Sequence record: NZ_CP118990.1
Length of the DNA: 64,000 bases
Direction: 5' to 3' (one strand)
From: a plasmid
Shown here: positions 9,001-12,000 of the stretch, piece by piece
How positions within the stretch are numbered: the first letter of the stretch is position 1
How the letters are laid out: every line of letters starts with the position of its first letter
Made by a program: the position numbers

Positions 9001-12000
9001 CCAACTTCGACTATGCGAGCCCCGTGCTGCATCGCTATAGCGTTCGAGGAACGATGTTCATCATGGCGGGATTGTTCATCTGCTTCTTTATCCCGTTCGC
9101 GCTCGACCCGGTTGTCATTCCTCTGACGATGATGGCCTGCTGTGTGCTGGTGGGCCTGACTGTCAGCAACTTCCAGAAACGAGTTTGATAGCGAAAGCCC
9201 TACCGTTGGCGGTGTCTGCATCTGGCATGAACCAGCGGTAGGGAGAGCTAGTCTGGCGAGTGATATTACTCAGTCAGGGCCACGAAGGCACCAGCAGGTG
9301 CGTTTGCAAAAGATGATCAGGAGATGATGGTGATGAAATTACAAAGTTGTTTGCAGCTGATTATGGTAGCAGTGGGAGTGCTGGTGGCTGGTCAAGCTAC
9401 TGCTGCATCGGGCGATACTAACAACACCGATAAGATTACGGCTCTGGATGCGGCCTGTCCCAGCTGTGTGAAGGTGGCGAACGATGTAATGGCTATTCGG
9501 GCGGAGCATTGTCAGCTCAAGAACACATCGGCCGAGATGATGATTAGCACCATGCGCAATGATCCAATGTATGGCTTTATGCAGGCTGTTGACTCGATGG
9601 TGGAGCCTGCGACTTATAAGACCATTCTGACGACCGCAGCAACCCAGGTCGATTGCGGCAACCCGCAAAACTGGATCGACATGACGCAGAAGGCGCTCAA
9701 GAAGAGCACCCCAAAAAGTTAGCTGATTCGATTTCATGGCTGCGTGCGAACCGCTAAAAAATTTCACATGTGAAATTTTTTAGCGTTCGTGTGCGATCTC
9801 GGTGTGGTGACAGTAGAGCCCAAGCAGCAACCGCTGCAAAGTTGAGGGAAAAACGGCCATGAAATTTTGAGTCTGCCAGATGCCGAGCGTGAAGCGGTGC
9901 TGGCGGCCATGCAGGAGGAGGTTATGTCCCAACTGCATGGTTATGACGACAACTGATCAGGGAAAAACGGGATGGCTCGTTGGTACAGCAAACAGCGCAA
10001 ACAGCGCATGAATGGTGACTTCTTGAAGTATGGATTTATCCCAGGCCGTGGCCGCATCGCCCTTGAACAAAAGCCTTGCCACTTTGCCAGTCACCTGGAT
10101 TTGTGCGAGTTCACCGGCGATTGCGATTGCAAGGGCGCTACTTACTGGAGAGAGCAGGCGACAGCCGTCTGAGTTAGAGGAGTATTGATGGATCTGCTCA
10201 TAGCCAAACAACAAGCCAACCCCGTTGAATATTATGTCGAGGCATACGCCCAGCATCCTGATAAGCCGGGAATTTTTTGCTCTTATCGCGGCACAGTTAG
10301 CCGTGAAGGTCTGATCATTTCAGGTGAGGATTTCGATTGCCTCCTCAACGGGTTTATTGACCACATATTTGTCGAGACTGGTGTTCGTTGCCATAGCAGC
10401 ACAATCAAGCTCCACAAGCTGCAACTGGTTCAAGACGACAATTTTCGTAAGTTGTTTGAGGTAGATGAGCAACATTGCTAAGTCAGAGGAGTACACGATG
10501 GACGAGAACGAGAACAAGCTCATCACTGTATCGAATCAACTCAAGGTCGGGCCTGCTCTGGCTACCTTGTCGGTTTGTTTTTTAGTTCTGGCGGGCCACC
10601 TGTCCTGGTGGGTGATCTTGATAGTGTTTCTATGGGGTTTGGACGACTCGATAACCATCAACTGGCGCAAACTGTTTCGTCGCTGGAGTTAAGGAGAAAG
10701 CCGCATGATGAGGCTGATCTGGGTGTTGGGTGCAAGCGGCTTTTTATCCGGCTGCGATGCCTTTGATGACCTGGCTGCTGCCCAGCAGCCCAAGACTATC
10801 GAGATCGTCGGCGGTTACCAGGTGCAGATTAACGGGCAGCCGGTGGCTATCGCAGGCACCAGCCTGTGCCGGTCCCATAAGAGTCGGCATGACTGTATCG
10901 TAGTTACCCCTGACACTAGCGTGGTCGAGGTACTGGTCGTCTATCTAGGGCAGTCGCTCCGCGAAGCCTGGACGGTCAAACGAGTAGGGGAGCTGCGGCA
11001 ACTGTTACGGGGCGATGGCAGCACGGTTATGGTGGCGAACTGATAGAGGAGTAGTCATGGCAAAGCTTGGCATGGCTGTGATCATGAAAATGCGGTGGCT
11101 GGGGGATAATGCTGTGGATGTGGCGGACCTTCTGCCAGACCATAATTTTCACCATAAAGATGGTGTTCTGATCATTCACCAGCACGGCGGTGACGTCAGA
11201 ATACCGAAAGGTGGGAGGTTCGCCGTTGATGATGCTGGCCATGCCCATAAAGTATTGATGCTCACAAGACAGTTTACTTTGAAACCAAACGGTACTGTGA
11301 CGGCCTGCCCGAGGTGTAGCAACAACACTGAATTTATCGGCTGCTCAATTCAAGTGGTAGAGGACTGCTGCGAAGTGTTTGTGATTTGCAGGTGTAACTT
11401 TGATCCGACAGAACAGAACACTGACCACCGCTATGAGGATGTAATGGGTAGCTTGAATCATGACAATCTCATGGTTGCTCTGTCGTGCTGGAATAGGGCC
11501 CTCGCCGATGCAGCAGCAACCAGCTGAATGCTTGTCTCCGCCGCAAGATCGTTAAAGAAATAATAGGAGGTGCTCATGGCGGGCGTGAAAGTCAGTGAGC
11601 TGGAATACCAAGGTCGGCTGGATGGTCGTCATGCCTGGGTGCATGATGGATTCTGGTTCTACTGGACAGAGAAAGCCAACGTGGTGACGTCAGATCTGGC
11701 TGGGCTGGAGCCATTCTGCCTACTTCGCTTGGCATTGGTCCGGGGCGAGCAGAACTCCATTCGAGCATTCACGAAAACAGATGCCAAGCGCGGGATCATC
11801 GATATGTTGAACCGTAAATAGATAGGGTTCTGACTGAATTCCAACAAGCTGTTCGGCAGTAAAAAATTTCACATGTGAAATTTTTTACTCCCAACTCGGG
11901 ACCGCAGCATATTTTTTTCCCCACACCCCAAAAGGGCCGTAATAGCGCTGTGCTGGTGGAGTGGGGAAAGCGACAATCCCCATGCCAAAGGCAACTTCAT

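What the first reader, a model, noticed from the sequence alone, without database searches (positions are those of the whole stretch)
9746..11888. Twin perfect palindromes (TTTCACATGTGAAA core) bracket a cassette-like cluster of six small same-strand ORFs in the ICE hotspot
Two 30-32-bp perfect palindromes share the 26-bp core AAAAAATTTCACATGTGAAATTTTTT. They lie 2105 bp apart, at 9753-9784 and 11859-11888. They bracket six tightly packed small genes with strong RBSs, encoding proteins of 66-156 aa. One is a lipoprotein, one is membrane-embedded and one is Cys-rich. The cluster sits between the traD-proximal genes and traL, the position of variable hotspot 1 in SXT/R391-type ICEs. The palindromes could be operator sites for a dimeric regulator, weak bidirectional terminators (A-run, stem, T-run), or recombination sites that delimit an exchangeable module. 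Small genes of unknown function in this position are often anti-restriction, entry-exclusion or defence and anti-defence factors.
Basis: seen in the sequence. Interest (0 to 1): 0.6.

Follow-up and report, generated by a model that had tools for sequence, protein, structure and literature searches.

The report
Plasmid parS sites flanking cargo genes
The two palindromes are copies of the centromere-like ParB-binding site (parS) that IncA/IncC-type conjugative plasmids scatter a dozen or more times over their backbone; two copies here flank a variable block of small orphan genes, which is a useful annotation but not a new kind of element.

Summary
Perfect palindromes lie at 9752-9785 (34 bp) and 11858-11889 (32 bp). 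They share 28 identical bases and sit 2105 bp apart.

Their 14-bp core, TTTCACATGTGAAA, is exactly the invariant core of the IncC plasmid parS site, for which ParB binding was shown by EMSA (NAR 2024, PMC10954446).

The window is not an SXT-type ICE. Its first 22 kb is 99.6% identical to Aeromonas A/C-like plasmids of the pAsa4 family. Those plasmids carry 12-17 copies of the core, including one over the parA promoter, plus a parA and KorB-domain parB operon (ParB 65% identical to IncC ParB).

Palindrome 2 is the positional orthologue of the IncC parS upstream of an AcaCD-type promoter before traL.

The Aeromonas sites differ from IncC sites in their flanks: A/T rather than C/G at position ±8.

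Five lineages keep a parS on each side of this region with four different gene contents. pAsa4c has precisely lost the block, leaving one hybrid site.

The small ORFs match no known family.

Verdict: a new member, with variant flanks, of a known kind. The terminator and dedicated-cassette-site readings are not supported. Interest is low to moderate.

The parts
9324..9722 (+). Backbone gene for a 132-aa secreted-looking protein, the last conserved gene before palindrome 1
   Evidence: ORF list. 97% identical in pAsa4b, 48% to IncC pPROV073-2 18299-18676, 68% in L028. No Pfam hit.
9752..9785 (.). parS-1: 34-bp perfect palindrome with the IncA/C parS core TTTCACATGTGAAA (9762-9775) and A6/T6 flanks plus GC outer arms
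   Evidence: The core is identical to the IncC parS core. Conserved in pAsa4b, pAhD4-1, pHX3, RZ6S-1 pA and L028. Homology to pAsa4b, pAhD4-1 and pHX3 ends exactly at 9785.
9786..9956 (+). Gene remnants: the 3' end of a 62-aa gene cut at the parS edge (to 9845), then a gene with a 274-bp frameshifting internal deletion (ATG 9859, junction 9864/9865, stop 9954-9956)
   Evidence: Comparison with L006 and L003.
9972..10172 (+). ORF a (66 aa, 5 Cys). Doubtful: it overlaps a minus-strand ORF (9957-10256) that is annotated as the gene in relatives, and it spans a 249-bp deletion junction (10113-10128 repeat)
   Evidence: No family hit.
10188..10481 (+). ORF b (97 aa), orphan cargo gene
   Evidence: Strong RBS. 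Annotated in L003. Absent from pAsa4b and IncC. No family hit.
10498..10692 (+). ORF c (64 aa), one hydrophobic segment, probably a membrane protein
   Evidence: About 91% DNA identity to a gene in the pAhD4-1 and pHX3 arrays. No family hit.
10705..11043 (+). ORF d (112 aa), lipoprotein-like N-terminus (LSGC lipobox)
   Evidence: Annotated in L006. No family hit. Unrelated in size and position to the Sfx exclusion lipoprotein.
11057..11527 (+). ORF e (156 aa), a fusion of a ~65-aa N-module and a ~90-aa Cys-rich C-module. Homology with pAsa4b, pAhD4-1 and pHX3 resumes inside it at about 11071-11075
   Evidence: The two modules are separate genes in L028.
11576..11821 (+). ORF f (81 aa), conserved among Aeromonas A/C-like plasmids
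   Evidence: 100% identical in pAsa4b. No family hit.
11858..11889 (.). parS-2: 32-bp perfect palindrome with the same core (11867-11880). Positional orthologue of the IncC parS upstream of the vcrx036-type promoter
   Evidence: Alignment A1 with IncC, pAsa4b and pAhD4-1. The paper statement on R55_55/vcrx036.
11926..11937 (+). AcaCD-box-like motif CCCCAAAAGGGC, 37 bp downstream of parS-2
   Evidence: One of only two sequence islands conserved with IncC in alignment A1. The same motif precedes traL and the post-22192 operon. AcaCD targets in IncC include traL, traI and dsbC. Assignment is by conservation, not tested.
12013..12165 (+). Small ORF (50 aa, hydrophobic), homologue of the IncC 47-aa ORF downstream of its parS
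   Evidence: Annotated in pAsa4c. Sequence comparison.
12231..12265 (+). Canonical intrinsic terminator (11-bp stem, 5 GC pairs, T8 tail), also read on the minus strand
   Evidence: Conserved in position in IncC.
12277..12288 (+). AcaCD-box-like motif CCCGAATTGGGC of the traL promoter
   Evidence: PtraL is AcaCD-dependent in IncC.
12356..12637 (+). traL, first gene of the pilus-assembly operon
   Evidence: Annotation of relatives. 100% identity in L028.

Best explanation
**What they are.** The two palindromes are parS sites, the centromere-like loading sites for the plasmid's own KorB-domain ParB. They are two of roughly 12-17 copies scattered over the backbone of Aeromonas A/C-like (pAsa4-family) conjugative plasmids.

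**How they work.**
- Shown for IncC, inferred here: a ParB dimer recognises the dyad TTTCACA|TGTGAAA together with its flanks.
- Inferred from the GERRWR arginine patch (read from the alignment) and from general ParB/KorB biology: ParB then forms a higher-order, probably CTP-dependent sliding complex. ParA uses this complex to segregate plasmid copies.
- ParB also autoregulates parAB through the copy that overlaps the parA promoter.

**Why this pair looks like brackets.** parS-1 and parS-2 sit in two intergenic gaps that border the variable region between the traD-proximal genes and traL. parS-2 lies 37 bp upstream of an AcaCD-type box, so ParB may also modulate that promoter (hypothesis of the IncC authors).

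**Recombination side effect.** The copies are at least 26-28 bp identical, so they are substrates for homologous recombination by RecA or by the plasmid's Bet/Exo. That explains the precise loss of the 2.1-kb block in pAsa4c. It is a by-product, not a dedicated cassette mechanism.

**The genes between the sites** are orphan cargo of unknown function and are dispensable for conjugation.
For: [quoted passage not shown] ParB binding to those sites was shown by EMSA, and a 4-bp central insertion abolishes it.
2. **Element identity.** Window 1-22128 is colinear with, and 99.5-99.7% identical to, A. salmonicida plasmid pA, a MOBH/MPF_F plasmid of the pAsa4 family.
3. **Copy number.**
   - pAsa4b has 15 exact and 2 one-mismatch cores. 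About 0.001 is my own expectation from sequence length for a given 14-mer in 182 kb.
   - pAhD4-1 has 15 exact and 1 near copy.
   - The 32-mer gives 24-28 two-strand matches per pAsa4-family plasmid.
   - 14 of the 17 pAsa4b sites are intergenic.
4. **Promoter copy.** One copy lies 49 bp upstream of parA in a promoter region nearly identical to the IncC PparA. In IncC that parS overlaps the -10 box and ParB autoregulates.
5. **Cognate proteins.** parA, a KorB-domain parB and a small HTH gene are present in pAsa4b. ParB is 65% identical to IncC ParB, and much more conserved over the N-terminal ~230 residues, by eye. It is 99.7% conserved in the window's closest relative, about 14 kb before the window starts.
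6. **Independent co-occurrence.** In Phytohalomonas tamaricis two copies of the same palindrome bracket a parA-parB operon. Its ParB is 42% identical to the Aeromonas and IncC ParBs.
7. **Positional orthology.** In the alignment with IncC, only the parS core and an AcaCD-like box downstream are conserved. This matches the published IncC arrangement at R55_55/vcrx036.
8. **Deletion.** pAsa4c and CP022176 carry one hybrid site, with the left flank of parS-1 and the right flank of parS-2, and lack exactly 2105 bp. The same type of event, a deletion between two parS-containing 31-bp repeats, was observed experimentally in SGI1. bet and exo genes are on the plasmid.
Against: - **No partition genes in the window.** parA and parB are not in the 64-kb window. 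The link rests on near-identical relatives.
- **Different flanks.** The experimentally bound IncC site is the 22-bp AAAC-core-GTTT. The core alone was not bound, and the right-flank G was said to matter. The Aeromonas sites have A/T at ±8 (27 of 34 half-sites, against C/G in 22 of 26 for IncC).
- **No binding data.** Binding by the Aeromonas ParB is inferred, not shown.
- **Unexplained outer arms.** parS-1 has GC-containing outer arms that covary among orthologues. It folds into a -30 kcal/mol RNA hairpin 30 nt after a stop codon. ParB binding alone does not explain this.
Confidence: 0.85

Rival explanations
1. The palindromes are (bidirectional) transcription terminators or mRNA 3'-end hairpins that close the upstream operons. 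The A-run, stem and T-run act at the RNA level.
For: - Both lie 30-38 nt after stop codons.
- The predicted RNA hairpins are stable: -24 to -30 kcal/mol, z -3.6 to -4.5.
- On the sense strand, parS-1 extends through G.U pairs to about 25 bp.
- The outer arms of parS-1 differ in sequence but stay complementary in the window, pAsa4b, pAhD4-1 and L028.
- Own-arm symmetry beyond ±11 exceeds the cross-site control in pAsa4b (p=0.007).
Against: - The terminator scan did not call them: fewer than 3 GC pairs in the inner stem and no T-run after the full stem.
- A canonical terminator exists separately at 12231-12265. In IncC a GC hairpin sits next to the parS rather than replacing it.
- A hairpin does not need an invariant 14-bp sequence shared by 15-17 sites. 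Three of those sites are inside ORFs and one is in a promoter.
- Extended symmetry is confined to a few sites. It is not significant in pAhD4-1 or IncC.
- Template-switch 'palindrome correction' could also produce arm covariation without selection.
Confidence: 0.1
2. The palindromes are dedicated recombination sites, comparable to integron attC or dif-like sites, at which a site-specific recombinase inserts, excises or swaps the gene block.
For: - Five lineages keep a copy on each side of this region with four different gene contents: window/RZ6S-1 pA; pAsa4b; pAhD4-1 with pHX3; and L028. The FIONA plasmid shares the window-type block but lacks parS-1.
- pAsa4c shows a clean site-to-site deletion.
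- The left limit of homology with three relatives is exactly the edge of parS-1.
Against: - No integrase or recombinase gene is annotated in or next to the interval in the relatives; the one tyrosine recombinase on pAsa4b is about 63 kb away. The six ORFs match no family.
- The right limit of variability is inside ORF e at about 11071, not at parS-2.
- The block is not one cassette per site.
- The same site occurs 12-17 times across the backbone, including the parA promoter.
- The join at 9785/9786 cuts into a gene with at most 1 nt of microhomology, as in illegitimate recombination.
- Proximity of synteny breaks to parS elsewhere is confounded, because both are intergenic.
Confidence: 0.04
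3. The palindromes are operators of a transcription factor other than ParB, for example the small HTH protein encoded after parB or another plasmid repressor, which controls the cargo genes and the promoter before traL.
For: - Perfect dyad symmetry is typical of dimeric repressors.
- parS-2 is 37 bp upstream of an AcaCD-like box.
- The IncC paper reports that an additional, unidentified regulator acts on the par operon.
Against: - EMSA in IncC shows that ParB itself binds sites with this core.
- The site co-occurs with this ParB clade in three unrelated replicon types.
- No sigma-70-like promoter was predicted on the + strand near parS-1.
Confidence: 0.03

Closest known systems
parS sites of the IncC/IncA parAB-053 partition system (plasmid R55; Kiss laboratory, NAR 2024, PMC10954446)
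   Same: - Identical 14-bp core TTTCACATGTGAAA.
- About a dozen copies scattered mostly in intergenic backbone regions.
- One copy in the parA promoter.
- A cognate KorB-domain ParB (65% identical).
- One copy upstream of the AcaCD-dependent promoter before traL, at the same position as parS-2.
   Different: - Flanks differ: A/T at ±8 and A4-6/T4-6 runs, instead of AAAC/GTTT.
- A second copy (parS-1) sits after the 132-aa gene, where IncC has none.
- Up to 17 copies, against a reported maximum of 14.
- ParB binding has not been tested for the Aeromonas proteins.
DR1/DR2 parS mimics of Salmonella genomic island 1
   Same: - Two copies of the same parS core as direct repeats on one element.
- Each lies next to an AcaCD-dependent promoter.
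- Recombination between them deleted the intervening segment (SGI1-C-d1), like pAsa4c here.
   Different: SGI1 has no partition genes of its own and uses the sites to hijack and displace the helper plasmid. Here the sites belong to the plasmid that encodes ParB.
KorB operators (OB, TTTAGCSGCTAAA) of IncP-1 plasmid RK2/RP4
   Same: - A KorB-type ParB with about 12 palindromic sites dispersed over the plasmid.
- The sites serve both partition and, at many promoters, transcriptional control.
   Different: The site sequence and length differ. A regulatory role of the A/C-type ParB beyond its own promoter is only hypothesised.
Chromosomal parS (TGTTTCACGTGAAACA) of Spo0J/ParB (recalled from general knowledge, not tested)
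   Same: The half-site TTTCAC/GTGAAA is shared.
   Different: The A/C-type site has two extra central bases (TTTCAC-AT-GTGAAA) and different flanks, and the proteins are distant.
Variable hotspot 1 (s043-traL) of SXT/R391 ICEs (recalled from general knowledge)
   Same: The same position in a MOBH/MPF_F transfer gene order, holding small variable cargo genes. Bet/Exo recombination genes are on the element.
   Different: The element here is a plasmid of the A/C-like group. Whether SXT/R391 elements lack this parS and ParB was not tested here.

Membership tests
IncA/IncC-type parS (ParB/KorB-domain partition site) | Symmetrical 14-bp core TTTCACATGTGAAA | tested here: met
   Exact at 9762-9775 and 11867-11880. 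The core is as published.
IncA/IncC-type parS (ParB/KorB-domain partition site) | Flanking AAAC / GTTT completing the 22-bp inverted repeat (reported as needed for IncC ParB binding, right-flank G conserved 16/16) | tested here: not met
   The window sites have AAAA/TTTT. In pAsa4b, position ±8 is A/T in 27 of 34 half-sites, against C/G in 22 of 26 for IncC. The TTT at +9 to +11 is shared. The sites are therefore a flank variant, not the IncC consensus.
IncA/IncC-type parS (ParB/KorB-domain partition site) | Many copies (7-14 in IncA/IncC) scattered over the conserved backbone, mostly intergenic | tested here: met
   pAsa4b has 15+2 copies, pAhD4-1 has 15+1, and pAsa4-family plasmids give 12-14 by 32-mer BLAST. 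The window itself spans only two of them.
IncA/IncC-type parS (ParB/KorB-domain partition site) | A copy overlapping the parA promoter (autoregulation) | tested here: met
   In pAsa4b the copy is at 18775-18788, 49 bp before parA, in a region nearly identical to the IncC PparA. It lies outside the window.
IncA/IncC-type parS (ParB/KorB-domain partition site) | Element encodes the cognate ParA and KorB-domain ParB | tested here: met
   Absent from the window. Present in every close relative: 99.7% in CP049831 at 47389-48549, and 65% identity to IncC ParB.
IncA/IncC-type parS (ParB/KorB-domain partition site) | Specific binding by ParB and contribution to stable inheritance or incompatibility | not testable with these tools
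   Needs EMSA, ChIP and stability assays. Shown only for IncC and SGI1 sites.
Intrinsic (Rho-independent) terminator | GC-rich stem followed directly by a T/U run | tested here: not met
   The scan did not call them. The T-run is inside the stem and no T-run follows the full hairpin.
Integron-type cassette or site-specific recombination site | Adjacent recombinase gene, with sites delimiting each mobile unit at both ends | tested here: not met
   No recombinase gene is annotated in or next to the interval in the relatives, and the six ORFs match no family. The right boundary of variation is inside ORF e.
SXT/R391 integrative conjugative element (hotspot 1) | Chromosomally integrated element of the SXT/R391 backbone | tested here: not met
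   The best matches are circular Aeromonas plasmids with a plasmid replicon type, at 99.6% identity. The literature calls them untyped A/C-like plasmids. The integration state of the window's own replicon could not be determined.

The most novel reading that the evidence does not exclude
The Aeromonas sites may be more than extra copies of a known centromere. Three linked possibilities remain open.

1. The A/T-for-C/G switch at ±8 defines a separate ParB-parS specificity group. This would let pAsa4-type plasmids coexist with IncA/IncC plasmids and escape the parS mimicry of SGI1.
2. The pair of sites flanking the traD-traL variable region acts as built-in recombination anchors, through Bet/Exo or RecA acting on 26-34-bp identical palindromes, for loss and exchange of cargo.
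3. ParB clamps loaded at both ends blanket the 2-kb cargo block and dampen its expression and that of the adjacent AcaCD promoter.

Separately, the covarying outer arms of parS-1 could mean that some parS sites double as RNA or DNA hairpins.
Probability: 0.2. Interest if true: 0.5.

Novelty: new member of a known kind. Interest (0 to 1): 0.28.

Why it matters
**Annotation.** The result turns an unexplained 'twin palindrome' into an annotatable feature. The partition sites of the Aeromonas A/C-like resistance plasmids (pAsa4, pAhD4-1 and relatives) do not appear in the papers found here.

**Testable leads.**
- A one-position flank difference from IncC parS may set partition incompatibility and susceptibility to SGI1-type parS mimicry.
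- There is natural evidence that dispersed parS copies cause precise deletions of cargo.

**Limits.** It does not reveal a new kind of system. The function of the small genes stays unknown.

Tried and rejected
1. **The repeat finder** (inverted, min 20) did not report the palindromes. I verified them by script instead.
2. **Family searches.** Pfam, PHROGs, PADLOC and NCBIfam on the six ORFs and the 132-aa neighbour gave nothing above noise. The same was true for cargo genes of relatives.
3. **Homologue search for ORF e.** It found only 16 narrow-range proteins with no domains.
4. **Rfam** on 9200-12700: no match.
5. **Terminator reading:** rejected as the main function.
6. **General test of whether synteny breakpoints coincide with parS** (pAsa4b against pAhD4-1).
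   - Three of 17 sites lie within 21 bp of an HSP end, and seven lie within 100 bp.
   - Both features are intergenic, so the control is inadequate and I make no general claim.
7. **Sfx surface-exclusion lipoprotein as the identity of ORF d:** rejected. sfx lies next to traN and encodes 286 aa.
8. **First AcaCD pattern.** My first guess, CCCNAAWWNGGGC, matched nothing. The pattern derived from the IncC alignment, CCCNAAWWGGGC, matched before traL, after parS-2 and at 22192. With one mismatch allowed, its count is not above chance.
9. **R55 itself** (JQ010984) is not in the plasmid collection. I used IncC pPROV073-2 instead.
10. **Two script calls failed** on the remote machine and were repeated.
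Full report
**1. The observation**

The window holds two perfect palindromes:
- CGCTAAAAAATTTCACATGTGAAATTTTTTAGCG at 9752-9785 (34 bp)
- AGTAAAAAATTTCACATGTGAAATTTTTTACT at 11858-11889 (32 bp)

They share 28 identical bases (9755-9782 = 11860-11887) at an offset of 2105 bp. The 14-mer TTTCACATGTGAAA occurs exactly twice in the 64 kb and has no further copy with up to two mismatches. 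Each palindrome starts about 30-37 bp after a TAG stop codon.

Six same-strand ORFs of 66-156 aa lie between them.
- Five have good ribosome-binding sites.
- ORF a (9972-10172) is doubtful. Relative to the closest relatives the window carries two small deletions: a junction at 9864/9865, and a 249-bp deletion at the 10113-10128 repeat.
- ORF a spans the second deletion. In L003 and L006 the record's annotation places a minus-strand gene there.
- 9786-9956 holds remnants of two genes. The first is cut at the edge of palindrome 1.

**2. What the element is**

Window 1-22128 is colinear with, and 99.5-99.7% identical to, plasmid pA of A. salmonicida subsp. masoucida RZ6S-1. It is closely related to pAsa4, pAsa4b and pAsa4c, and more distantly (about 85%) to pAhD4-1 and pHX3. 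These are MOBH/MPF_F conjugative plasmids, which the literature calls untyped 'A/C-like' relatives of IncA and IncC. The element is therefore not an SXT/R391 ICE. The gene order is shared: relaxase, traD, two conserved genes, a 132-aa gene, a variable region, then traL. The interval is thus the positional equivalent of SXT hotspot 1.

**3. What the palindromes are**

A full-text search for the core found one paper: Nucleic Acids Res. 2024, PMC10954446. It reports the following for IncC plasmid R55.
- The parAB-053 ParB, a KorB-domain protein, binds them in EMSA.
- A 4-bp central insertion abolishes binding.
- One copy overlaps the -10 box of the parA promoter.
- SGI1 carries two mimics.

I tested whether the same system exists in the window's family.
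- **Partition genes.** pAsa4b (whole plasmid) encodes ParA, a KorB-domain ParB and a small HTH protein. Its ParB is 65% identical to IncC ParB, and much more conserved over the N-terminal ~230 residues (by eye), with a GERRWR arginine patch (read from the alignment).
- **Copy number in pAsa4b.** It has 15 exact and 2 one-mismatch copies of the core. About 0.001 is my own expectation from sequence length. Fourteen of the 17 are intergenic.
- **Promoter copy.** One copy lies 49 bp upstream of parA, in a promoter nearly identical to that of IncC.
- **Other relatives.** pAhD4-1 has 15+1 copies. A 32-mer BLAST gives 24-28 two-strand hits in every pAsa4-family plasmid.
- **The window's closest relative.** It encodes the same ParB (99.7%) about 14 kb before the point where the window begins. 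The window itself has no parA or parB.
- **An unrelated replicon.** In Phytohalomonas tamaricis, two copies of the same palindrome bracket a parA-parB operon. Its ParB is 42% identical to the Aeromonas and IncC proteins.

Site and protein clade therefore travel together in three different replicon families.

**4. Local anatomy**

I aligned the region after palindrome 2 with IncC, pAsa4b and pAhD4-1. Only two conserved islands appear:
- the parS core
- a CCCAAAA(G/T)GGGCCGTAA.AGC.CTG motif, 37 bp further on in the window

The short form CCCNAAWWGGGC recurs in front of traL (12277) and at 22192. There is a near-match before the relaxase gene. These are the positions of AcaCD-activated promoters in IncC.

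Palindrome 2 is thus the orthologue of the IncC parS that the 2024 paper places beside the AcaCD site of the R55_55/vcrx036 promoter.

Downstream of it come, in order:
- a 50-aa ORF (12013-12165)
- a canonical terminator (12231-12265)
- the traL promoter box
- traL

IncC has no counterpart of palindrome 1. There, the homologue of the 132-aa gene is followed directly by another gene.

**5. How the Aeromonas sites differ from IncC sites**

- **Flanks.** In IncC pPROV073-2 (12+1 sites), position ±8 is C/G in 22 of 26 half-sites, and every right flank starts with G. In pAsa4b it is A/T in 27 of 34, giving AAAA-core-TTTT. The pAsa4b exception is the parA-promoter copy, which keeps GTTT.
- **Significance.** The IncC authors found that the core alone is not bound and stressed the right-flank G. 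The Aeromonas sites are therefore a flank variant, and their binding by the Aeromonas ParB is inferred, not shown.
- **Extended symmetry.** A few sites have extended dyad symmetry: palindrome 1 and its orthologues, and pAsa4b 105334 and 120908. Own-arm complementarity at positions 12-20 exceeds the cross-site control in pAsa4b (p=0.007). It does not in pAhD4-1 or IncC.
- **Covarying arms of palindrome 1.** The outer arms differ in sequence yet stay complementary among orthologues:
  - GCTA6/T6AGC in the window
  - GCCGCTA6/T6AGCGGC in pAsa4b and pAhD4-1
  - CCGCCA5/T5GGCGG in the metagenomic plasmid L028
- **Possible causes.** Either selection for a hairpin or template-switch 'palindrome correction' could produce this pattern. 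I could not separate the two.

**6. Is the block an exchangeable module?**

Five lineages keep a parS on each side of the interval, with four different gene contents:
- window and RZ6S-1 pA
- pAsa4b
- pAhD4-1 and pHX3
- L028, which has about 3.4 kb, nine small ORFs and two tandem sites on the right

The FIONA plasmid (L006) shares the window-type block but has only the right-hand copy.

pAsa4c and CP022176 have a single hybrid site, with the left flank of site 1 and the right flank of site 2. They lack exactly 2105 bp. pAsa4c is a working conjugative plasmid, so the block is dispensable for transfer.

Four points argue against a dedicated cassette mechanism.
- Homology with pAsa4b, pAhD4-1 and pHX3 ends exactly at 9785, but it resumes inside ORF e at about 11071, not at palindrome 2.
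- No recombinase gene is annotated in or next to the interval; the only tyrosine recombinase on pAsa4b lies about 63 kb away.
- The join at 9785/9786 cuts a gene with at most 1 nt of microhomology.
- The sites are dispersed plasmid-wide.

The simplest reading is ordinary homologous recombination between 28-bp identical repeats. The plasmid encodes Bet and a lambda-type exonuclease. The IncC paper records the same kind of spontaneous deletion between the two parS-containing repeats of SGI1.

A plasmid-wide test of breakpoint-parS coincidence was confounded, because both features are intergenic.

**7. Rival readings**

- **Terminator.** The hairpins are stable as RNA. They lack a GC-rich inner stem and a trailing T-run, and the scan did not call them. 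The invariant core at sites inside ORFs and in a promoter argues for protein recognition. A secondary hairpin role for palindrome 1 remains possible.
- **Known RNA family.** None matches.

**8. The genes**

- ORFs a-f and the 132-aa neighbour match nothing in Pfam, PHROGs, PADLOC or NCBIfam.
- ORFs a-d are absent from pAsa4b and IncC. ORFs e and f are conserved in Aeromonas relatives.
- ORF e is a fusion of two modules that are separate genes elsewhere. It has only 16 detectable homologues.
- Their function is unknown. The anti-restriction or defence suggestion is neither supported nor excluded.

**9. Verdict**

The twin palindromes are two copies of the A/C-family parS site. They are newly recognised here in the Aeromonas A/C-like plasmids and carry a flank variant. 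That makes them a new member of a known kind, of modest interest.

The points worth an experiment are:
- the ±8 specificity switch
- the covarying arms of site 1
- parS copies as deletion hotspots

Noticed in passing
window 22129-59000: About 37 kb is absent from the related plasmids. It is a capsule or polysaccharide biosynthesis and export cluster (Capsule_synth, Stealth, GT2/glycerophosphotransferase, Poly_export/SLBB). It has ISAs1-type transposase genes at both ends (22968-24104 and 57864-59000) and further IS copies inside. GC is 0.50 against 0.55-0.57 for the backbone. It looks like a composite-transposon cargo on a conjugative backbone.
   Followed up: partly
window 16630-22128 and 59093-64000: There are two copies of the giant Ig-like-domain gene that follows traA. 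The second is only 88% identical to the relative's copy (window 60580-64000 against L016 21539-24959). They flank the capsule insertion, which suggests a recombination or duplication between two diverged plasmid backbones.
   Followed up: no
L014 6124-6205 (Duganella sp. Root1480D1, NZ_LMFZ01000007.1): An 82-bp perfect palindrome is centred on the same AAATTTCACATGTGAAATTT sequence. No ParA or ParB homologue was detected in the 8 kb fetched. A. lacus contig L009 has a 48-bp perfect palindrome around the same core.
   Followed up: no
L015 1133-1158 and 3362-3383; also L008 2961-2986 and L012 7938-7957 (Phytohalomonas tamaricis): Four copies of the same core with A/T flanks occur in one genome. 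Two of them bracket a parA-parB operon whose ParB is 42% identical to the A/C-family ParB. This points to a wider ParB clade using this site outside the A/C plasmids.
   Followed up: partly
window 9786-9864; L004 4379-4446; L005 4160-4227; L006 3001-3084: The roughly 70-80-bp stretch directly right of palindrome 1 recurs inside the small-gene arrays of other plasmids. In L006 it is the 3' end of a 62-aa gene plus the start of the next gene. The cargo array is therefore shuffled in sub-gene pieces.
   Followed up: partly
L028 7322-7335 and 7423-7436 (JGI contig Ga0557493_045187): In this metagenomic A/C-like plasmid the right-hand boundary carries two parS copies 100 bp apart. The called gene for the ORF-e C-module homologue (P0009) reads into the first copy and ends in ...KKFHM, which is the translation of the palindrome.
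   Followed up: no
pAsa4b (L019) record positions 100550, 105334 and 116082; IncC L022 record position 55442: Three parS copies in pAsa4b sit in a shared, roughly 60-bp near-palindromic module (tgctttcc..gtggcacataaaa-core-ttttatgtgccac..ggaaagca). It is a repeated longer element that is degenerate at the orthologous IncC site.
   Followed up: no
pAsa4b record 88837-88850 and 125724-125737; IncC record 40428 and 82573: parS copies inside coding sequences are positionally conserved between the Aeromonas and IncC plasmids. One is in the gene next to traN, the position of sfx. The other is in the tyrosine recombinase gene. Both have poor flanks.
   Followed up: no
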